Source: Candidatus Versatilivorator sp.
GTDB taxonomy: Bacteria > Acidobacteriota > Terriglobia > Versatilivoradales > Versatilivoraceae
Reading direction: 5' to 3'
DNA length: 64,000 nt
Assembly: GCA_965207735.1 (NCBI GenBank)
Contig: OZ242296.1
Location: 1,600,001 to 1,664,000 of the forward strand
Every line of letters begins with the position of its first letter. The stretch's first letter is position 1. Shown here one piece after another: positions 3,872 to 62,120 of this stretch. The translations under genes were made by a program, and so were the position numbers. Below the pieces are notes generated by a model that searched no databases, had not been told where the DNA came from, and saw only the letters and a program-made list of their open reading frames with translations.

Positions 3872-3887
3872 AGTTTTGTCGTGAGGG

Positions 3888-4074
3888 CTTGTCTGAAACA
3901 ACCGACAAACGACAAAAGAAAAAAGACTTATCCACGAAGGGGCACGAAGAACGACGAAGGGGCACTAAGGCGCTGAGGTTAACCGCGACGGGGTACCAAG
4001 GTCGCGAAGGGTTGATCGATTTCTGATTGTTTCACTCTATGTATGATCCGCACACCAGGGCGGGGGCGGGGCTT
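3888..4074 (+). repeat. dispersed ~180-bp intergenic element, copy A
   Basis: Near-identical to 53129-53300 (+) and 15493-15675 (-): ctgaaacaaccga...cttatccacgaaggggcacgaagaacgacgaagg...cactaaggcgctgaggtt...atcgattt...gtttcac...atgatccg. Confidence 0.9.
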
Positions 4075-15492: not shown

Positions 15493-15675
15493 AGTCCGGC
15501 CCCTTCCCTGCCGGGCAGATCATCCGAGGGTGAAACAATCGGAAATCGATAGTCCTCTCGCGACCTTGGCACCCCGTCGCGGCCAACCTCAGCGCCTTAG
15601 TGGCCCTTCGTCGTTCTTCGTGTCCCTTCGTGGATAAGTCTTTTTCTTTGTCTTTTGTCGGTTGTTTCAGACAAG
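15493..15675 (-). repeat. dispersed ~180-bp intergenic element, copy B (reverse)
   Basis: Reverse complement aligns over its length with 3888-4074 and 53129-53300. Confidence 0.9.
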
Positions 15676-15805
15676 ACAAGACCCCCCACCGCCTTGAAGA
15701 TGGCGGCCGGTTCCCATACAATGAGGTGGCTGGCCGTTCCATCGGCGGGCCCCCTCTCACTCCGGCAGCTCACTCCGCCGCCGTCCCCGACTCGATCATT
15801 CAACC

Positions 15806-48050: not shown

Positions 48051-49139
48051 TCAAGGCCGAATGCCGACCCGAAGGGCGCCACTGGCCACGGCGTGCTGAA
48101 AGGCCCGGCTGACCTGGGTGAGCGGAAACATCCGGGTGAGAAGCTCGGAGAAGGGGAACCGGGTGTGGTGTTGCTCGAGGAAGGCCATCGCCGCCGAGAG
48201 ATCTTGCGGGGCGTAGTTGTGAACACCCCGAATCTGCAGCCAGCCGCGCACCACCCGTTCCGGGTCCAGGGAAAGAGGAGCGCTGGGAAACACGGCTCCG
48301 ACCAGGACGTAGCGCCCTCCGGTCCGCAGTAAGGGCACGGCCGCCGCCATGGCGCTGGCAGCCCCCGACAGTTCCAGGGCCAGGTCCACCCCGCGTCCCC
48401 GGCTGAGCTCCTTCACCGTTCGGGCCAGGATCCCGGGTCCCTCTCCAACTGCTACGCAATGGCTGGCGCCGAAGCGTTCGGCCTGCTTGAGTCTGGCTTC
48501 GTCGACGTCGCAGACAATGATCCGGCTGGCGCCTTGCGATCGAGCCAGGGCGCAGGCCGTCAGGCCCAACATGCCGGCCCCCTGGATGAGCACGATCTCA
48601 CCGCCACAGCCTCCGCCGGCCCGCATGGCGGCCATGACCGTGGCCGTGGCGCAGTTGGCCGGGCAAGCCACCTCGTCGGGCAGACCCTCCGGAATCGAAA
48701 CCACCGCGGTACCGGCAATCAAATGGCACACCTCCGCCAGCCCCCCGTTGAAGAGGTGTTCAGGCTGAAGGCTCTCGTGTCCATACTTGAAAAGCCGTTC
48801 GCACTTCTGTGGAAGGGAATGCCGGCAGAAGAAACACTGCCCGCAACTGGCCGCAATCGACCAGGAGATGCGATCGCCCACTGTGACCGGCTTGCCGTCC
48901 AGGGTTCGCACCGGCGGCCCCGGGCCCACTTCGATGACCTCACCCAGAATTTCGTGGCCCAGGATGGTGGGCGTGGGGGTCTGGCGGCGGCCCTGATAGG
49001 TGTGGAGGTCGCTGCCGCAGATCGAGCTGCAACGCACCCGCGCCAGCAATTGCGAAGACCCGGGCCGAGGCAATGGGAAACTCTCCAGCCGGATGGGCTC
49101 TCCCGGTCCCGCAAACACGGCCGCGCGCGCCGTTTCCAT
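48051..49139 (-). CDS. zinc-dependent alcohol dehydrogenase, phosphonate-catabolism associated
   Basis: ICGSDLH, GHE, CGQCFFC...C structural Zn site, NCATAT, GAGMLG; last gene of the phnA-phnY operon. Confidence 0.88.
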   Translation of the reverse strand: METARAAVFAGPGEPIRLESFPLPRPGSSQLLARVRCSSICGSDLHTYQGRRQTPTPTILGHEILGEVIEVGPGPPVRTLDGKPVTVGDRISWSIAASCGQCFFCRHSLPQKCERLFKYGHESLQPEHLFNGGLAEVCHLIAGTAVVSIPEGLPDEVACPANCATATVMAAMRAGGGCGGEIVLIQGAGMLGLTACALARSQGASRIIVCDVDEARLKQAERFGASHCVAVGEGPGILARTVKELSRGRGVDLALELSGAASAMAAAVPLLRTGGRYVLVGAVFPSAPLSLDPERVVRGWLQIRGVHNYAPQDLSAAMAFLEQHHTRFPFSELLTRMFPLTQVSRAFQHAVASGALRVGIRP

Positions 49140-49155
49140 CTTCGACTCCCCGCAA

Positions 49156-50598
49156 TTACCAGGGCAGCGAGAAGGTCTTGACCGTGGACATGAACCTCAT
49201 GGCCTCGATGACCCCTTCCTTGATCCCCAGCCCCGAATCCTTGACGCCGCCGAAGGGGGTGGACTCGATACGGTAGCCCGGCACCTGGTTGACGTTGACC
49301 GTCCCGGTGCGGATTCCCTTGACGGCCCGAATGGCCGCCTGGATATCCCGGGTGACCACTCCGGCGGAAAGCCCGTAAGCGGTGGCGTTGGCCAAGTCGA
49401 TCCCGTCCTCCAGATCGCGGATGGCCAGAATGGGCGCCAGCGGCCCGAAGGACTCCTTGACCACCATCTTGCAGGTTCTGGGCACGTCGGCCACCACCGT
49501 GGGTTCCATGAGAGCTCCCTTGCGGCGCCCGCCGCGGAGGACCCTGGCGCCGGCCTCCACCGCTTCCTCCACCCGCTGCTGAAGTCCGGTCGCCGCCGCC
49601 TCGTCGATCACGGTGCCGACACGGGTGGTCCACTGCTCGGGGTCGCCCGAGATGTACTCGCCGGTTTTCTCCACAAACAGCCGGGTGAAAGGCTCCAGCA
49701 CCCTGTCGTGAACCAGCAGCCGCTTGACGGCAGTACAGCGTTGCCCGGAATTGCGATAGCACCCTTCGGCCGCCAGGCCGGCGGCCAGTTCGAGATCGGC
49801 GTCTTCCAGAATCAACAGGGGCGAGTTGCCTCCCAGCTCCAGGCACAGCTTCTTGTAGCCGGCGATGGCAGCCAGGCGACGGCCGACTGCTCCACTCCCG
49901 GTAAAGGTCACGGCCTCGATGCGGTCATGCATAGCCAGGGGCTCGGCAAATTCCCCGACGGAACCCAGCAGCACACTCAGCATCGGCCCGGGAAGCCCGG
50001 CCTGGTAAAGCAATTCCGCGAATCGGATGGCGGCCAGCGGCGTCTTCTCCGACGGCTTCAGAATCAGGGGCGCCCCGGCGGCCACGGCGGGAGCGATCTT
50101 GTGCACCACCTGGTTCAGGGGATGATTGAAAGGCGCGATGGCCCCCACCAGGGGAACCGGCTCCCGCAGGGTGAAGATCTTCCGGGCCTTGCCGTGAGCA
50201 GAGACATCTCCCGAAAATACCTGGCCCTCGTCCTTGAGTGCCTCGACGGCGGCGCATTGCAGCACGTCCAGGGCCCGACCGACCTCGTAGGTGGTATCTC
50301 GCAGACACAGACCGGACTCTCGTGTCACCAGCAGGGCGAACTCCTCGGCTCGCTGCTGCAGGAGGGAACGGGCCTTCAACAGGACTTCATGCCGCTGGTA
50401 GCGGGTCAGCGAGCCTTTCCAGGCCAGCGCCTCCTCGCAAGCCCGGTCGAGGTGATCGCGCCCCGCCAGGGAGACCGTCCCCACCAGTGCTCCCGAAAAG
50501 GGATTGAAGACCTCCAGGGTGCTGTCGGTCCGGAGCGGCTGCCCTGCCAGATAGCCGGGAAGATCCAGCGTTTCCTCGCGGGACCGGCTGAGCTTCAT
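49156..50598 (-). CDS. phnY: phosphonoacetaldehyde dehydrogenase
   Basis: ALDH motifs PFNHPLNQVVHK, KPSEKTP, FTGS, ELGG, GQRCTA, ESFGP, GIKDSG-like GVKDSG; ATGA-coupled to phnA. Confidence 0.9.
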   Translation of the reverse strand: MKLSRSREETLDLPGYLAGQPLRTDSTLEVFNPFSGALVGTVSLAGRDHLDRACEEALAWKGSLTRYQRHEVLLKARSLLQQRAEEFALLVTRESGLCLRDTTYEVGRALDVLQCAAVEALKDEGQVFSGDVSAHGKARKIFTLREPVPLVGAIAPFNHPLNQVVHKIAPAVAAGAPLILKPSEKTPLAAIRFAELLYQAGLPGPMLSVLLGSVGEFAEPLAMHDRIEAVTFTGSGAVGRRLAAIAGYKKLCLELGGNSPLLILEDADLELAAGLAAEGCYRNSGQRCTAVKRLLVHDRVLEPFTRLFVEKTGEYISGDPEQWTTRVGTVIDEAAATGLQQRVEEAVEAGARVLRGGRRKGALMEPTVVADVPRTCKMVVKESFGPLAPILAIRDLEDGIDLANATAYGLSAGVVTRDIQAAIRAVKGIRTGTVNVNQVPGYRIESTPFGGVKDSGLGIKEGVIEAMRFMSTVKTFSLPW

Positions 50599-51839
50599 CG
50601 GGAACCTCCCTCGCAAAGACAGGCAAACAGGTCGAAATTTCTCGGGTCTTTGGCTCCCTCCGCGCGTGTACACGGTTCGGAAAGCAGCAGGGGCACCGTT
50701 TCCTCGAAGCGGCCGCCGTGGGACCTCAAGCCGCCCCTCAGGGGGCGCAGGTCGTGATACTCGGGCGTGCGGCCCATGACGACGTCCCGGTCCGAAAATA
50801 CCATCAGGTCTCCAATGCGGTCCGGTGGGAGCTCCAGCCGGGTGACCGCATCCGGGCGCCTGCACACCTCGGTCACACCCTGGCGTCGAGACAGCCATTG
50901 GACCACGCTCGCCTCGGACAATCCTTCAGCCAGGTGAACCGTCACCGCCGACCCCAAGGCTCCGTGGTGCACCACGTAGGGGTCGGTGATCGGACAGATC
51001 ACCGTCACGCCCCCGCCAAAACGCTCGCGCAGCTCGCTCTCCAGGTAGATCACGTTGGGCCGGCCGTCGGGCCTGGTCTTGTCATTCATTCCGTGATCGG
51101 CCGTGGCACCGAGGGTGGCGCCCAACTCCAGCAGCCGGCCCAACTGATGGTCGATGGCTTCATAGAAGTCCAGCGCCTGGGGAGCTGACGGTGGATAGCG
51201 GTGCTGCACGTAGTCGGTCAGCGACAGATACAGAAAGTCCGAACGGCCGCTCTCCAGCAGGGCCACGCCCGCCCGCAAGACGAACAGGCTGGCCTCGGCG
51301 CTGTAGATGTCGGGGCTACCCTCCCGGACCGACTCGGCCAGGCCTTCCAGGCCCGGAAGGCCCCGGATCTGATCGGCGGCCCGCTCCGACGAAAAGGCGA
51401 TACCCGAAAGTCCACGGGTCAACAAATCCCGCAGCTTCTCCTTGGCCGTCACCATGGCCACCTTCCTCCCCGATCGGGCGGCGGCTGCCAGGATGGTGTC
51501 GCACCGCAGGTAGCGGCCCGAGTTCATCATGACCTCCGCGCCGCTCCCCGGGTCGAGAAAGAAGTTGCCGGAAATGCCGGTGGCGGAAGGCGGAACACCG
51601 GTGACAATGCAGGCGTTGTTGACGTTGGTGTAGGTGGGAAGTGCGGCCCGCGCCAGCCCGCGGTAGCCGCCGGCAGCCATTCGGGCCAGGTGGGGCATGC
51701 GGTCCCGGGCGAGCGCCACCGTCAGGTAGTCGTCCTCGCAGCCATCCATGCAGATCGCTACCACCGGCTTGGCCGGCGGCCGGTATCGGCGGCCGTTGAC
51801 GGAGAAGGGCGAGGTGGAAATCGTTGGTTTCATGGTCAT
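50595..51839 (-). CDS. phnA: phosphonoacetate hydrolase
   Basis: VNGRRY, CMDGC, PTYTNVNN, GISGN, VTAKEKLR, LTDYVQH, TADHGM, PITDPYVVHHGALGS, LRSHGG. Confidence 0.93.
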   Translation of the reverse strand: MTMKPTISTSPFSVNGRRYRPPAKPVVAICMDGCEDDYLTVALARDRMPHLARMAAGGYRGLARAALPTYTNVNNACIVTGVPPSATGISGNFFLDPGSGAEVMMNSGRYLRCDTILAAAARSGRKVAMVTAKEKLRDLLTRGLSGIAFSSERAADQIRGLPGLEGLAESVREGSPDIYSAEASLFVLRAGVALLESGRSDFLYLSLTDYVQHRYPPSAPQALDFYEAIDHQLGRLLELGATLGATADHGMNDKTRPDGRPNVIYLESELRERFGGGVTVICPITDPYVVHHGALGSAVTVHLAEGLSEASVVQWLSRRQGVTEVCRRPDAVTRLELPPDRIGDLMVFSDRDVVMGRTPEYHDLRPLRGGLRSHGGRFEETVPLLLSEPCTRAEGAKDPRNFDLFACLCEGGSR

Positions 51840-51851
51840 GAAAATCGCTGG

Positions 51852-53114
51852 CTACCGCCGGACAAACAGTGCAATCGAACCGCTGAGCAAACAGGCGCCC
51901 GCCACCACCGGAAATACCAGGCCGGTGTTATCGCCGCTCCGTTGGATCATCCAGCCGATGAAGGGCTCTCCCAGTCCCGCCAGAAGGTAGGCATGCATGT
52001 TCATCACTCCCGTGCCCGTGCCGGCGTAGCGGGTCCCCAAGAGATCCGGACACAGCGCCCAGAAAGCTGACTGGGGACCGTAGGTGAAGAACCCGCAAAG
52101 GGCCAGCAACGCCAGGGACCAGAAGAAATGGTACGGCAACAGGTACATGGCGGTACAGGCCAGAAAGGCGGCCGTCATGAACAGGAAGATGACCCTGGAC
52201 CGATTGGAATGAAAGACCCTATCGGACAGCCAGCCGCTGCAGACCGCTCCCAGGGCCATGCCCACCGGCAGCGCCAGTGTGATCCAGGACCGCGCTGAAA
52301 AACCTCGCCACCCCTTTCCCAGGAAGTGGACCGGCACCCAGGTCAGCAGGCCGTAGCGGGCCAGGCTCTGGAAACCGATGGCCAGGCTGGCGATCATGAA
52401 GCGCCAATTGGAACATACCTGACGATAGCGGTGCCAGGCGGTCTCCCCGTTCTCTTGCCGGCTTGAGGGCGCGGCCCGGTCTTCAGCCGGGTCGGCTTCC
52501 AGGTGGTTGGAGCCGGTGAAACCGAGTTCCGAGGGACGGTCCCGAGCCATCCGGTAGTAGACCGCCCCCCCCAGCAGAAGCAGCAGTACCGGGAGGCGAA
52601 AGATCCAACGCCAATTCAACTCCAGAGCCAAAATGAGATTGGAGGTGGTGAAGGCCAGAACGGAGGACAGGCCGGCCGCGCCCACGTAGAGACCATAGAC
52701 CTTCCCGCGCTCCAGGCGGCCCCACCAATTGGACAGCACCCGGCTTCCCGGAGCCCAGCCCATGGACTGCGCGTAGCCGTTGATGGCCCATGGGACCATC
52801 AGACCCGCCAAGCTGCCGGCGAAGCTCACCCCCCAATTGAACAGGCAGGAAAGCAGCGCCCCCAGGCTGATCATGCGGCGGCCGCCGAACCGATCACCCA
52901 GGTTGCCGTTGACGGCCTGCCCGGCGGCATAGCACCACAACATGGCGCTGCTGACCCACCCCAGGCTGGCCTTGCCGATGCCCAACTCCTGCTCGATGCC
53001 CGGAATGGCGAAGCCGAAGGTCTGTCGGCCGGTGTAGTAGAAAAAGTAGCAGAGCATGGTGGCCCACAGAATGCGCCACTGAGCCCGCCGAAACCGACGG
53101 TCCTCACCTGCCAT
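51852..53114 (-). CDS. MFS transporter, organophosphate:Pi antiporter (GlpT/UhpT-like)
   Basis: YFFYYTGR, GNLGDRFGGR, NGYAQSMGW, WWGRLERG, GWLSDR, YGPQ; about 12 TM segments. Confidence 0.88.
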   Translation of the reverse strand: MAGEDRRFRRAQWRILWATMLCYFFYYTGRQTFGFAIPGIEQELGIGKASLGWVSSAMLWCYAAGQAVNGNLGDRFGGRRMISLGALLSCLFNWGVSFAGSLAGLMVPWAINGYAQSMGWAPGSRVLSNWWGRLERGKVYGLYVGAAGLSSVLAFTTSNLILALELNWRWIFRLPVLLLLLGGAVYYRMARDRPSELGFTGSNHLEADPAEDRAAPSSRQENGETAWHRYRQVCSNWRFMIASLAIGFQSLARYGLLTWVPVHFLGKGWRGFSARSWITLALPVGMALGAVCSGWLSDRVFHSNRSRVIFLFMTAAFLACTAMYLLPYHFFWSLALLALCGFFTYGPQSAFWALCPDLLGTRYAGTGTGVMNMHAYLLAGLGEPFIGWMIQRSGDNTGLVFPVVAGACLLSGSIALFVRR

Positions 53115-53128
53115 GTTTAGTTTCCTGG

Positions 53129-53300
53129 CGTGCCTGAAACAACCGAAAAAAGACAAAAGAAAAAGACTTATCCACGAAGGGGCACGAAGAACGACGAAGG
53201 GACACTAAGGCGCTGAGGTTAACCGCGACGCGGTACCAAGGTCGCGAAAGGATTGATCGATTTCCGATTGTTTCACCCTCGCATGATCCGCCCTCCAGGG
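53129..53300 (+). repeat. dispersed ~180-bp intergenic element, copy C
   Basis: Near-identical to 3888-4060. Confidence 0.9.
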
Positions 53301-53440
53301 CTCTTTTTCGGTCGGCCCTGACCGTCTCCCTCCAAAGCGGCGCAACGGAGCCGGAACCGGTGTGGTCCGGAGCAGAAACGTCTGGGAAATCGGCTGGACC
53401 GCTTGCTTTGAAAAGTCAGCAGTTTTGCTCGCCCTGGCAA

Positions 53441-56066: not shown

Positions 56067-58112
56067 TTACTTGGAGGGAGCTGAGATCTGGACCAGTTCG
56101 TCCGGTTTCTTGTTGAGGACCATTTCCTCGTAGACCTCACGCATCTTGGCCGCCTCCCGGGCCGCCTTCCTGCGCATCCGCGCCTCGTCGGCCGCCGTCT
56201 GCGGGCCATCGCTCAGCGATCTCACTCTGGCTGCATCCTCGGCATCCACCCTGAGAAAGTGATCGTAGCTCTCCAGGCCGACCTTCTTGCCCTTGGCGAA
56301 CACCTCGTGCTTCCCGTGGTTCCTGTACCATTCGGCCACGGTGGCATTCTTGTGCATGTTCTCGATGATCTTCCGCCATCCCACCCCGGTGTTGTAAGCA
56401 CAGAAGGAGATCTCTCCCTCCTGGGTGGCGTAGGGAATGATGCACATCTCGGTCCGCCGGAAGTCGTAGTTGAAGAGATCCTGGAACCACATTCCCGAGA
56501 TAAAGAGGAAATTCCAGGGATCCGAGCGGCGCTTCTTGATGTCCTCAATGGTTCGGCTGGGGTCCGACTTGCCATATTTAAGGTCGGCGTCGCCGGAGGT
56601 ATTCCAGGTCTTGTCGAACTTCTTGAGGATATCGGACAGAACCAGACTCGGCGGCGCCTTGAAGGGGGAGTAGTTCTTCAGCAGCGCCATCGCCATCATG
56701 AAGTTGGAGAAGCTCTTGCCTCGAGCCGCGTCGGTAATCATGCGCATGTCCCCCATCAACCCGGGGACGTCGATGAACTGGGGAACCGCGGCCACCTCCT
56801 TGTTCTCCTTGTTGATCATTAAGGCCGTGCCCACGCCGCAATTGGGGTGGCAGCCGCAACTGAACGTGCCCCATTCCCGGTCGGGGCCGTGCACCAGATC
56901 CGCGTAGTCGGCAAAGCCCCCCATGATCGAAATCGGAAACCAGTCCCGGGTCGGTTCAGCGATCCCGGTCTGAGTCTTCACGTCGCTGGCCATGTGAGAC
57001 AGCGTGTAGCGCTGGCGGTGGCGGCGATCGGGGGTGATCTCCTCATCCCGGCCGGTGAAGGAGACCGGCTGGAAGGCGATGAAGGCGATCTTCTTGGGGT
57101 TGTCGATAGCAAACCGGATGATGGGGCCAACCTGGTCGTTGTTGACTTCGTTGATCAGGGTGGTCACCAGAACGATCTCAATGCCGGCTTCGTGCATGTT
57201 GTTGATCGCTCTCAGCTTGACGTCGAAGAGATTGCCGATCTGGCGGTGGCTGTTGGCGTCGTTGCCGATCCCGTCGAACTGCAGGTAGGCGTAGCGCAGT
57301 CCGGCCTCGGCGGCCTTGCGCGAAAACTCCTTGCTCTTGGCGAACTCAATGCCGTTGGTCGCCGCCTGCACACTGTTGTATCCCAGGTCGCGCGCCAACT
57401 TGACCGCCTTTAGGAAATAGGGCGACATGGTCGGCTCTCCGCCGGAAAACTGAATGGACATCTGTCTCCTGGGCTTGATTTCCAGGGCGTTGGTCATGAT
57501 CTCCTGGATGTCTTCCCAACTGAGCTCATGAACATAGCCCACCTGGTTGGCATCCATGAAACAGGGATCGCACATCATGTTGCAGCGGTTGGTAAGGTCC
57601 ACGGTCAGGACCGATCCCCTGCCGTATTTGATGGTGCTGGTGCCGTGCTTGTGCAACCGCTCGTCGTTGTGAGCCCGGATGTCCCGGCCGGGAAAGTTGC
57701 TCTCGATCCAGTTCAGAAACTCCACGTCCTTGGCCATCATGTCCTCGAACTTGCCATGCTGCGGACACTCCTTGTCCATCCACACCTCGCCGTTCCGCTC
57801 GACGATCTGCGCCTTGATTTCACCCACGTGTTCGGTCACCAGCGATTGCCAGTCCTGCTCTCCGTTGATGATCCTCTCTCTGGCCTCCATCACGCAGACG
57901 GGGCAAAGGGAGTCAGTGGTTCTGGGGAACCCCAGGGTGGGTTTGGACTTTTCCCAAGACTTCTGCAGGGGCTTGTCCGACCATTTGGGCGTAAAGGACG
58001 GATTGGGGAAATGCTTGTTGAAGAGCTGGATGGTGTTGAACACAACGCCGGCCGCCGAACATGCGGCGGAGTCCACGTATTTCATGAGGCGTTTGCCTGT
58101 TGCGCTAGACAT
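56067..58112 (-). CDS. radical SAM protein of the tetraether synthase (Tes/GDGT-MAS, MJ0619) family
   Basis: N-terminal SLCPVC...KECPQHG, DLTNRCNMMCDPCF, QFSGGEPT, TNGI, YLQFDG, FQPVSFTGR, CHPNCG, FQDLFNYD...C...SFCAYN. Confidence 0.82.
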   Translation of the reverse strand: MSSATGKRLMKYVDSAACSAAGVVFNTIQLFNKHFPNPSFTPKWSDKPLQKSWEKSKPTLGFPRTTDSLCPVCVMEARERIINGEQDWQSLVTEHVGEIKAQIVERNGEVWMDKECPQHGKFEDMMAKDVEFLNWIESNFPGRDIRAHNDERLHKHGTSTIKYGRGSVLTVDLTNRCNMMCDPCFMDANQVGYVHELSWEDIQEIMTNALEIKPRRQMSIQFSGGEPTMSPYFLKAVKLARDLGYNSVQAATNGIEFAKSKEFSRKAAEAGLRYAYLQFDGIGNDANSHRQIGNLFDVKLRAINNMHEAGIEIVLVTTLINEVNNDQVGPIIRFAIDNPKKIAFIAFQPVSFTGRDEEITPDRRHRQRYTLSHMASDVKTQTGIAEPTRDWFPISIMGGFADYADLVHGPDREWGTFSCGCHPNCGVGTALMINKENKEVAAVPQFIDVPGLMGDMRMITDAARGKSFSNFMMAMALLKNYSPFKAPPSLVLSDILKKFDKTWNTSGDADLKYGKSDPSRTIEDIKKRRSDPWNFLFISGMWFQDLFNYDFRRTEMCIIPYATQEGEISFCAYNTGVGWRKIIENMHKNATVAEWYRNHGKHEVFAKGKKVGLESYDHFLRVDAEDAARVRSLSDGPQTAADEARMRRKAAREAAKMREVYEEMVLNKKPDELVQISAPSK

Positions 58113-61346: not shown

Positions 61347-62120
61347 ATGAATATGCGCGCGGCTCTGGATCGGATGGGAGTTGGGGAAGACCTGCTTTCG
61401 GCCGAGGAAGAATCCTTCCTGGACGAGAACGGATACCTCGTCATTCCCGACATACTAACTCGGAACCAGGTCCGGACCTTCAACCATCACCTGGCGGCGC
61501 TGGCCGAGAAAGAGGACAACGGCGGCCGGGTGGAAGAGGGCTTTCAGCACGGCACCGTCGTGGTGCTGGACCTTGTCAACAAGGACCCTGTCTTCGACAT
61601 CTGTATCAGCCACCCGAGGATTCTGGCAGCCGTGGATCGCGTCCTGCCCAAGGGTTTTCGGCTGTCTTCTCTCTGTTCCCGAGCCGTGCTGCCCGGCGGC
61701 GGACACCAGGACCTTCATCCCGACTGGCATCCCGCCTGGTGGCGCGACCGCAAGCAGCCCAGCGACCACTTTTCCTGTAATACTCTCTGGATGCTGGACG
61801 ACTTCACGCCCGACAACGGCGCTACCCGGATTGTGCCGGGATCCCACCTGGGACTGACCTTCCCCGAGGATGAGATGGAAGACATGCAGCAGCCGCACCC
61901 CCGGGAAATCTCCCTCACCGGAACCGCGGGCACCGTGGTGGTCTTCACCGGACACACCTGGCACAGCGGGGTCAAGAATCGAGCCGATGCCCCTCGGCGG
62001 TCCATCACGGCCTATTTCTGCCGCCGGGATCAACCCCAGCAGACCGATCAGCGCGAGGCTCTTCAACCGGCTACTTCCCAACGACTCAGTCAAGCGACCC
62101 TCTACCTGCTGGATGTTTAA
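61347..62120 (+). CDS. phytanoyl-CoA dioxygenase-family Fe(II)/2OG oxygenase
   Basis: ENGYLVI, LHPD (HxD), WMLDDFTPDNGATRIVPGSH, WHSG..N...RR. Confidence 0.92.
   Translation: MNMRAALDRMGVGEDLLSAEEESFLDENGYLVIPDILTRNQVRTFNHHLAALAEKEDNGGRVEEGFQHGTVVVLDLVNKDPVFDICISHPRILAAVDRVLPKGFRLSSLCSRAVLPGGGHQDLHPDWHPAWWRDRKQPSDHFSCNTLWMLDDFTPDNGATRIVPGSHLGLTFPEDEMEDMQQPHPREISLTGTAGTVVVFTGHTWHSGVKNRADAPRRSITAYFCRRDQPQQTDQREALQPATSQRLSQATLYLLDV

What the first reader, a model, noticed from the sequence alone, without database searches (positions are those of the whole stretch)
48051..53114. Phosphonate operon MFS-phnA-phnY-ADH without phnW: candidate oxidative pathway for 2-hydroxyethylphosphonate
Seen: four tightly linked genes (gaps of 12 bp, a 4-bp overlap and 16 bp) encode a GlpT/UhpT-like antiporter, PhnA, PhnY and a Zn alcohol dehydrogenase; no transaminase or ABC transporter is present. 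Known: PhnW-PhnY-PhnA converts 2-aminoethylphosphonate via phosphonoacetaldehyde and phosphonoacetate to acetate + Pi; 2-HEP occurs in marine organic matter and is a C-P lyase substrate. Inference: the ADH replaces PhnW and oxidises 2-HEP to phosphonoacetaldehyde, giving a C-P-lyase-independent route yielding 2 NAD(P)H. A phosphonate:Pi antiporter would fit use as a carbon/energy source with Pi export.
Basis: partly seen in the sequence, partly recalled or inferred. Interest (0 to 1): 0.75.

Follow-up and report, generated by a model that had tools for sequence, protein, structure and literature searches.

The report
Known hydroxyethylphosphonate breakdown operon, Acidobacterial copy

Summary
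Observation confirmed: minus-strand MFS–phnA–phnY–Zn-ADH, gaps 12/−4/16 bp. The ADH passes TIGR03366 (403 vs 328 bits). It keeps all 8 residues published for PbfG, the 2-hydroxyethylphosphonate (HEP) dehydrogenase assayed by Piazza et al. 2026 (PMC13576164), mapped through a same-genus proxy. That paper already lists pbfG+phnY+phnA clusters without phnW, so the pathway is known; Acidobacteriota are not in its table. The complete host genome gave no PhnW, PbfD, PhnX, PhnJ or PepM over cut-off. All 14 genus genomes carry the ADH; none of the 13 others has PhnW. The open part is the transporter. It belongs to a GlpT-like subfamily distinct from the AEP permease AepP. In 10 of 14 genomes picked by the transporter alone it sits beside a HEP dehydrogenase, either PbfG or the unrelated PhpC, and never beside phnW. 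It is likely a HEP permease, but phnA-only copies leave phosphonoacetate open, and Pi antiport is untested. Use as a carbon source is weakened by the lack of isocitrate lyase. Verdict: new member of a known kind; low interest.

The parts
51852..53114 (-). GlpT/OPA-like MFS transporter (P0001, 420 aa) of a subfamily that travels with HEP dehydrogenases; predicted HEP permease. Keeps the two GlpT phosphate-binding arginines (R30, R253). An upstream TTG at 53156 is an alternative start.
50595..51839 (-). PhnA phosphonoacetate hydrolase (P0002, 414 aa); D32, T71, D209, H213, D248, H249, H374 identical to PDB 1ei6
   Evidence: TIGR02335 over cut-off; E 5e-105
49156..50598 (-). PhnY phosphonoacetaldehyde dehydrogenase (P0003, 480 aa); R108, H159, E254, R287, C288, R443 identical to PDB 4i3t
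   Evidence: TIGR03250 599.9, just under cut-off; only PDB hit at E<=1e-90: 5e-134
48051..49139 (-). PbfG-type Zn-dependent HEP dehydrogenase (P0004, 362 aa; TIGR03366): catalytic Zn C41/H62/C163, predicted HEP site S43/R52/H121/N308 plus R298, structural Zn C99/C102/C105/C113
53124..53301 (.). Copy of a ~180-bp genome-wide interspersed repeat ending 10 nt before the MFS ATG; not a conserved part of the operon
   Evidence: 164 copies of at least 150 bp in the genome; a near-full copy in this intergenic region in 2 of 11 genus loci

Best explanation
The four genes form a conserved operon that likely degrades 2-hydroxyethylphosphonate (HEP): the MFS protein is predicted to import HEP, the PbfG-type zinc dehydrogenase likely oxidises it to phosphonoacetaldehyde, PhnY likely oxidises that to phosphonoacetate, and PhnA likely hydrolyses the C-P bond to acetate and phosphate. 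Net: HEP + 2 NAD(P)+ + 2 H2O gives acetate + Pi + 2 NAD(P)H. The first step is reversible and favours HEP, so the next enzyme must pull it (shown in vitro with PhnX for the Cellulosimicrobium enzyme; inferred here for PhnY). Shown here: gene anatomy, family membership, residue conservation, no recognised AEP entry enzyme or C-P lyase marker in the genome, conservation across the genus. Shown by others on homologues: the chemistry of PbfG, PhnY and PhnA. Inferred: activity of these particular proteins, the transporter's substrate and Pi antiport, co-transcription, physiological role.
For: (1) ADH over the TIGR03366 cut-off. A Cellulosimicrobium sp. homologue (L046), numbered from its own Met, gives exactly the published C45, S47, R56, H66, H124, C166, R288, N298 and scores 413 bits on TIGR03366. 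P0004 keeps 8 of 8 at 43.9% global identity (46% BLAST), inside the paper's PbfG range (mean 40.7%, minimum 27.9%). In a 196-sequence alignment six of these columns are invariant and two nearly so (194 and 192 of 196). (2) Controls: 4 other Zn-ADH paralogues in the genome keep 0-4 of 8 and at most 1 of the 4 substrate-site residues; two non-PbfG ADHs from loci keep 4 and 3 of 8. (3) Table S2 of the paper lists pbfG+phnY+phnA without phnW or pbfD in 7 of 33 entries (columns machine-read). (4) Own genome (100% complete, one contig): best PhnW-family hit 167.9 vs cut-off 360.8, closer to BhcA/pyridoxamine transaminase models; PbfD-family TIGR03364 65.8 vs 285.1; PhnX 23 vs 220; PhnJ none; PepM 123 vs 319.55, prpB-like. 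(5) TIGR03366 over cut-off in 14 of 14 genus genomes and 0 of 27 other relatives; phnW over cut-off in 0 of 13 congeners. (6) The same four-gene set in other orders occurs in G980, G1424 and G1482. The set with PhpC in place of PbfG occurs in Variovorax and Ensifer plasmids, G853 and G796.
Against: No protein of this operon has been assayed. The assayed PbfG (WP_154797266) was not itself retrieved; a same-genus proxy was used. PhnY is 36 bits under its curated cut-off, as are most non-proteobacterial copies scored, including two beside phnW. The substrate-site residues in the paper come from an AlphaFold3 model, not a crystal structure. No promoter, Pho box or regulator was found, so co-transcription is inferred from spacing only. 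No true isocitrate lyase argues against net carbon assimilation through the glyoxylate shunt. Of the 14 transporter-picked genomes, 4 had no HEP dehydrogenase within 6 kb.
Confidence: 0.9

Rival explanations
1. The enzymes are as assigned, but the transporter mainly imports phosphonoacetate (or takes both HEP and phosphonoacetate), like the transporter in the phnA operon of Pseudomonas fluorescens 23F.
For: Burkholderia and Caballeronia plasmids carry lysR-phnA-MFS (47-48% identity to P0001) with no dehydrogenase. These copies nest inside the same subfamily and differ at only 2 of 24 pocket columns examined. The original phnA operon has an associated transporter (PMC3266647 passage).
Against: The subfamily also sits in clusters that have PhnX or a PhnX-like hydrolase and no PhnA, where phosphonoacetate is not an intermediate (G555, G994, G1167, many Bacteroidota). 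The phnA-only pair is on a long branch (1.32). The sequence of the 23F transporter could not be obtained.
Confidence: 0.3
2. The operon serves 2-aminoethylphosphonate (AEP) catabolism with an unrecognised transaminase or oxidase elsewhere supplying the aldehyde; the ADH is accessory.
For: The genome has a class V aminotransferase that weakly matches PhnW (E 6e-49) and class III aminotransferases about 32% identical to PbfA. pbfG does co-occur with phnW or pbfD in other organisms.
Against: All candidates are far under cut-off in this genome and in 13 congeners. The transporter lacks the AepP residue pattern. AEP inhibits PbfG (Ki 0.71 mM) and is not a substrate.
Confidence: 0.04
3. The ADH prefers a different small anionic alcohol (isethionate, 2-hydroxypropylphosphonate, or an R-HAEP-derived compound) that feeds the same PhnY/PhnA steps or a sulfonate route.
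For: Only one PbfG has been assayed and it showed trace isethionate activity. P0004 is only 44% identical to the proxy.
Against: All published substrate-site residues are kept. Isethionate kcat/KM is about 7 vs 88,500 for HEP. The partners are PhnY and PhnA, not sulfonate enzymes (SafD 363 vs PhnY 600 bits).
Confidence: 0.04
4. The ADH works in the biosynthetic direction (phosphonoacetaldehyde to HEP) and the MFS exports HEP.
For: PbfG is faster in the reductive direction in vitro, and two Actinoplanes homologues lie in biosynthetic clusters.
Against: No PepM in the genome. The neighbours PhnY and PhnA destroy the aldehyde and the C-P bond.
Confidence: 0.02

Closest known systems
PbfG HEP dehydrogenase clusters with phnY-phnA (Piazza et al., Protein Sci 2026, PMC13576164); PbfG = TIGR03366 HpnZ_proposed
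   Same: Same enzyme family, 8 of 8 named residues, same gene set without phnW or pbfD (7 of 33 entries in Table S2), same proposed chemistry.
   Different: Host is Acidobacteriota, a phylum absent from Table S2 and from the main text. The paper assayed an actinobacterial enzyme with PhnX, not PhnY-PhnA, and mentions 'transporter' once, in a figure legend.
Degradative PhpC/PsrA (TIGR03405, PF00465) clusters with phnY-phnA or phnX
   Same: Same predicted reaction and downstream enzymes; the same MFS subfamily at 56-65% identity.
   Different: Unrelated dehydrogenase fold; the proteobacterial copies examined have an adjacent LysR regulator, which this operon lacks.
PhnW-PhnY-PhnA pathway for AEP (Sinorhizobium meliloti; PDB 4i3t, 3szy)
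   Same: PhnY and PhnA are close homologues with conserved active-site motifs.
   Different: No PhnW or PbfD here; entry is by alcohol oxidation.
AepP (P. putida BIRD-1 AEP permease; PMC8316502) and E. coli GlpT (PDB 1pw4)
   Same: OPA-like MFS; GlpT Y38, Y42, R45, W138, R269, Y270 kept (GlpT numbering recalled). K80 is Q in both AepP and P0001.
   Different: P0001 is 25% identical to an AepP-type protein and lacks the AepP pattern K46/Y165/K266/E299 (it has Q31/A147/S250/P283). It forms a separate clade.
Transporter of the P. fluorescens 23F phnA operon (PhnB; name recalled)
   Same: The lysR-phnA-MFS layout is seen for members of this MFS subfamily in Burkholderia and Caballeronia.
   Different: Homology to the 23F protein was not tested (paper not held); most subfamily members sit beside HEP dehydrogenases instead.

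Membership tests
PbfG HEP dehydrogenase | PF00107 Zn-dependent MDR fold; TIGR03366 over cut-off, as for the Cellulosimicrobium homologue | tested here: met
   403.2 vs 328.1; proxy 413
PbfG HEP dehydrogenase | Catalytic Zn ligands Cys45/His66/Cys166 and four structural-Zn cysteines | tested here: met
   C41/H62/C163 and C99/C102/C105/C113
PbfG HEP dehydrogenase | Predicted HEP-binding Ser47, Arg56, His124, Asn298 and Arg288 of the partner subunit | tested here: met
   S43, R52, H121, N308, R298; paralogue controls fail
PbfG HEP dehydrogenase | Clustered with phnX or phnY-phnA | tested here: met
PbfG HEP dehydrogenase | NAD(P)+-dependent oxidation of HEP in vitro | not testable with these tools
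   shown only for WP_154797266
PhnA phosphonoacetate hydrolase | TIGR02335 over cut-off and metal/nucleophile motifs of 1ei6 | tested here: met
   (residue roles recalled)
PhnY phosphonoacetaldehyde dehydrogenase | TIGR03250 curated cut-off | tested here: not met
   599.9 vs 635.65; non-proteobacterial copies score 594-664, including 630, 636 and 619 for three beside phnW
PhnY phosphonoacetaldehyde dehydrogenase | Phosphonate-binding Arg108/His159/Arg290/Arg447 and catalytic Cys291/Glu254 (numbers recalled; they fit chain 4i3t with an offset of 3) | tested here: met
   R108, H159, E254, R287, C288, R443
HEP-dedicated cluster (as opposed to an AEP cluster) | No phnW or pbfD in the cluster | tested here: met
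   none in the cluster or over cut-off in the genome
AepP | AepP residue pattern, clade and linkage to phnW | tested here: not met
GlpT/OPA organophosphate:Pi antiporter | Two pocket arginines (R45, R269) | tested here: met
   R30, R253; R at both columns in all 75 rows
GlpT/OPA organophosphate:Pi antiporter | GlpT equivalog cut-off and the K80/H165/E299 network (roles recalled) | tested here: not met
   141.5 vs 632.55 bits; Q66, A147, P283
GlpT/OPA organophosphate:Pi antiporter | Obligate exchange for Pi | not testable with these tools
   needs a transport assay

The most novel reading that the evidence does not exclude
The MFS gene defines an unnamed HEP permease subfamily, distinct from AepP and GlpT, that both convergent HEP dehydrogenases (PbfG and PhpC) have recruited across at least five phyla and that serves three different downstream modules (PhnX, PhnY-PhnA, and a putative CoA-dependent one). 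Fixation of the operon in a whole, probably sponge-associated Acidobacteriota genus, as its only detected route for C-P cleavage, would make HEP a regular currency of that community and the transporter a marker gene for HEP turnover.
Probability: 0.55. Interest if true: 0.42.

Novelty: new member of a known kind. Interest (0 to 1): 0.2.

Why it matters
The pathway itself is no longer news. What this copy adds is modest: it extends PbfG-based HEP catabolism to Acidobacteriota, where the ADH is present in 14 of 14 genomes of one genus; it ties the name PbfG to the existing model TIGR03366; and it points to the missing uptake step. [quoted passage not shown]

Tried and rejected
Expression: no RNA holder listed; no evidence either way, so no reads were laid. 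Promoter scan 0 hits vs 0.7 expected, terminators 5 vs 5.4; crude Pho-box scan best 9 of 14 in a T-rich stretch; Rfam 0 hits. The upstream region does not align across 11 genus sequences, so no operator was found. The careful MFS tree did not finish; the quick tree has long-branch warnings and 75 rows after I dropped near-duplicate loci and matches under 330 residues, so it is used only for the split from AepP-type proteins, not for a donor or order of events. A horizontal origin is plausible (phnA in 8 of 8 congeners, 0 of 11 other genomes of the family; nearest outside ADH 63% in a Planctomycetota MAG) but no donor test was run. Primary papers on the 23F phnA region, PhnY and PhnA structures were not held, so those residue roles are recalled. 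A search of supplements of PMC9381506 (12 of 51 files) found no residue table. Paper searches for 'Versatilivorator' (0 papers), sponge+Acidobacteria+phnA (1 unrelated), phnB (7 unrelated listings) and hydroxyethylphosphonate+transporter+'major facilitator' (2 papers, none naming a HEP permease in the listing or passages seen) gave nothing on this transporter; subscription journals are mostly not covered. Rejected: GlpT or AepP orthology; biosynthetic role; C-P lyase link; treating the L135 (G1349) neighbour ADH as PbfG (4 of 8 residues, no TIGR03366 hit at 1e-40). No structure or complex prediction was run.
Full report
Observation. NCBIfam gives PhnA over cut-off (453.6 vs 407.55), PhnY as by far the best family but under cut-off (599.9 vs 635.65), the ADH over the cut-off of TIGR03366, 'putative phosphonate catabolism associated alcohol dehydrogenase' (403.2 vs 328.1), and the MFS as a distant PgtP/GlpT/UhpC relative. 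The nearest solved structures are 1ei6/3szy for PhnA, 4i3t for PhnY, 1pw4 (GlpT) for the MFS, and an unassigned Zn-ADH and threonine dehydrogenases for the ADH.

Host. The window lies in a single-contig, 5.26-Mb, 100% complete genome. The closest named relatives of the ADH (78-99%) are Terriglobia / Ca. Versatilivorator MAGs, Acidobacteriota. The DNA is held by 20 runs from 9 studies; one row is labelled sponge metagenome and the rest are coded, so a sponge habitat is suggested but weakly shown.

The pathway is published. Piazza et al. 2026 (PMC13576164; I read abstract, introduction, results, discussion, methods 4.4-4.5 and supplement parts 1-2 of 3; figures not visible) describe PbfG, a PF00107 Zn dehydrogenase found with phnX or phnY-phnA, often without phnW or pbfD. 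The Cellulosimicrobium protaetiae enzyme oxidises HEP (kcat 9.9 /s, KM 0.10 mM, kcat/KM 88,500), prefers NAD+ threefold over NADP+, barely uses isethionate, and is pulled forward by PhnX. Table S2 has 7 of 33 entries with phnY+phnA only (machine-read columns) and no Acidobacteriota. The text does not mention TIGR03366, MFS or AepP.

Membership of the ADH. The assayed protein was not retrieved, so I used a Cellulosimicrobium sp. PMB13 homologue (L046:6953-8005). Counted from its own Met it has C45, S47, R56, H66, H124, C166, R288 and N298, the exact published numbers, and it scores 413 bits on TIGR03366, which ties PbfG to that model. P0004 keeps all eight (C41, S43, R52, H62, H121, C163, R298, N308) at 43.9% identity; in 196 aligned homologues six columns are invariant and the other two are kept in 194 and 192. 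Four other Zn-ADH paralogues of the same genome keep 0-4 of 8. PhnA and PhnY keep the active-site motifs of 1ei6 and 4i3t (residue roles recalled). PhnY's miss of the cut-off is shared by most non-proteobacterial copies scored, including two of three that sit beside phnW.

In the own genome no PhnW (167.9 vs 360.8; the hit fits other class V transaminase models better), PbfD-family oxidase (65.8 vs 285.1; TIGR03364 is the annotation of PbfD1 in PMC10590968, passage), PhnX, PhnJ or PepM reaches cut-off. tblastn with locus-derived PhnX, PhnX-like, PbfD, PhnZ and PhnE queries found nothing at 1e-6; PbfA and PhpC queries found only 27-34% paralogues. TIGR03366 is over cut-off in 14 of 14 genus genomes and 0 of 27 other relatives, phnA is present in 8 of 8 congeners tested and 0 of 11 other genomes of the family, and phnW is over cut-off in 0 of 13 congeners. 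Kin are not independent, but the operon is clearly an old, maintained trait of the genus, at the same place behind moaA in 11 of 11 loci checked.

The transporter, the one open part. Among 80 loci picked by the ADH, 46 have an MFS at 41% or more identity to P0001 and 3 more a distant one. To avoid that bias I picked by the transporter: five phylum samples, 1685 genomes in all, gave 17 genomes with a hit at E<=1e-45. I dropped the own genome, one centre genome chosen through its ADH (G457) and one 30% outgroup hit (G312). Of the remaining 14, ten have a HEP dehydrogenase within 6 kb: PbfG in G256, G980, G1424, G1482 (7-8 of 8 residues where checked; G256 over the TIGR03366 cut-off); PhpC over the TIGR03405 cut-off in G853, G555, G796; and Planctomycete-type PhpC by motif only (His195 to Gln, Tyr264 kept, as the paper describes; under the TIGR03405 cut-off) in G1167, G1008, G994. 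Four have none (G274, G1053, G1349, G1417) and none of the 14 has phnW within 6 kb. Of 8 plasmid hits in the subfamily I opened 5: two are PhpC+PhnA+PhnY operons (Variovorax, Ensifer), two are lysR-phnA-MFS (Burkholderia, Caballeronia), one is lysR-M20 hydrolase-MFS (Phyllobacterium). Of 14 metagenome loci, several redundant, 11 have pbfG close by. Two of these (L114, L117) are an internal control: the P0001-type MFS follows pbfG, while a second MFS sits beside phnW and has the residue pattern of P. putida AepP (K46, Y165, K266, E299 in GlpT numbering; PMC8316502 passages and supplement part 2 of 4). P0001 is 25% identical to that second protein and has Q31, A147, S250, P283 at those places. 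A quick tree puts 69 P0001-type rows in one clade (SH-aLRT 100) apart from 6 AepP/GlpT-like rows, with long-branch warnings. Both pocket arginines are kept in all 75 rows. Inference: a phosphonate permease, most likely for HEP; loss of the acidic E299 would fit a substrate without an ammonium group. Against a strict reading, the phnA-only copies have almost the same pocket, so phosphonoacetate cannot be excluded, and Pi antiport rests on family resemblance only, with the GlpT K80/H165/E299 residues missing.

Physiology. AcsA is present, so acetate can enter acetyl-CoA. The only isocitrate-lyase-family hit is a partial prpB-like match, so HEP would serve as a source of energy and phosphorus more plausibly than of net carbon; other acetate assimilation routes were not tested. 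A PstB gene is present. No regulator, promoter, Pho box or Rfam element was found at the operon; constitutive expression or read-through from moaA is possible but unshown. A ~180-bp repeat with 164 near-full copies in the genome ends 10 nt before the MFS start.

Earlier notes of this scan. Three earlier reports on other genomes reach the same verdict; I had found the paper independently, and they are not counted as evidence.

Verdict. This is a new member in a phylum not listed in that paper. The remaining value lies in the uncharacterised transporter subfamily and in a pbfG locus linked to a putative CoA-dependent module seen in passing. Interest 0.2.

Noticed in passing
L111:1409-8906, L112:3199-10696, L115:3199-8187 (near-identical metagenome contigs): pbfG (TIGR03366 372 bits, 8 of 8 residues), a PhoD-like gene, the same MFS, two citryl-CoA-lyase-like ORFs and a SauS-like CoA-acylating aldehyde dehydrogenase, with no phnX or phnA in the locus. 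This looks like HEP oxidation feeding a phosphonoacetyl-CoA route. I recall such a CoA-dependent route being reported for AEP, but the library search found no such paper; the pairing with pbfG is not in Table S2 of PMC13576164.
   Followed up: partly
window 53124-53301 (other copies at 3886-4061 and 15506-15681): A ~180-bp interspersed repeat with 164 copies of at least 150 bp at about 90% identity in the genome, 50 of 163 spacings under 400 bp (tandem runs), no Rfam match; parts of it occur in congeners. Nature unknown (MITE- or REP-like).
   Followed up: partly
L016, L019, L021, L036, L138 (other Acidobacteriota, 8.7-9.5 Mb genomes): A two-gene MFS-pbfG cassette, with transposase-like ORFs (judged by eye) near several copies, and phnA and phnX elsewhere in the genome; G256 has three copies of the MFS, one followed by a truncated pbfG (L036).
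   Followed up: partly
L103:4533-7260 (Phyllobacterium plasmid NZ_CP050302.1): lysR, an M20/ArgE-DapE-like hydrolase and the same MFS subfamily (54%) with no known phosphonate gene; possibly an unrecognised phosphonate amide hydrolase.
   Followed up: no
L114:417-11130, L117:4921-13186: Large phosphonate islands with pbfG, PbfA, phnX, phnW and two different MFS transporters, one per entry enzyme.
   Followed up: yes
window 56067-58112 (-): 681-aa radical SAM protein whose best model is tetraether lipid synthase Tes (326.9 bits, under the cut-off of 450), upstream of a ferredoxin-like ORF and an iscA/erpA-like ORF (names from sequence, recalled); relevant to membrane-spanning lipids in Acidobacteriota.
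   Followed up: no
ADH-picked loci L026, L037, L039, L047, L052, L058, L060, L076, L078-L080, L083, L086, L087: A second, unrelated membrane protein family (about 440 aa, no NCBIfam hit; my label DUF5690 is recalled and untested) replaces or accompanies the MFS, often with the TIGR03364 oxidase.
   Followed up: no
window 61347-62120 (+): PhyH-family 2OG-Fe(II) dioxygenase 8 kb from the operon; no link to it was tested.
   Followed up: no
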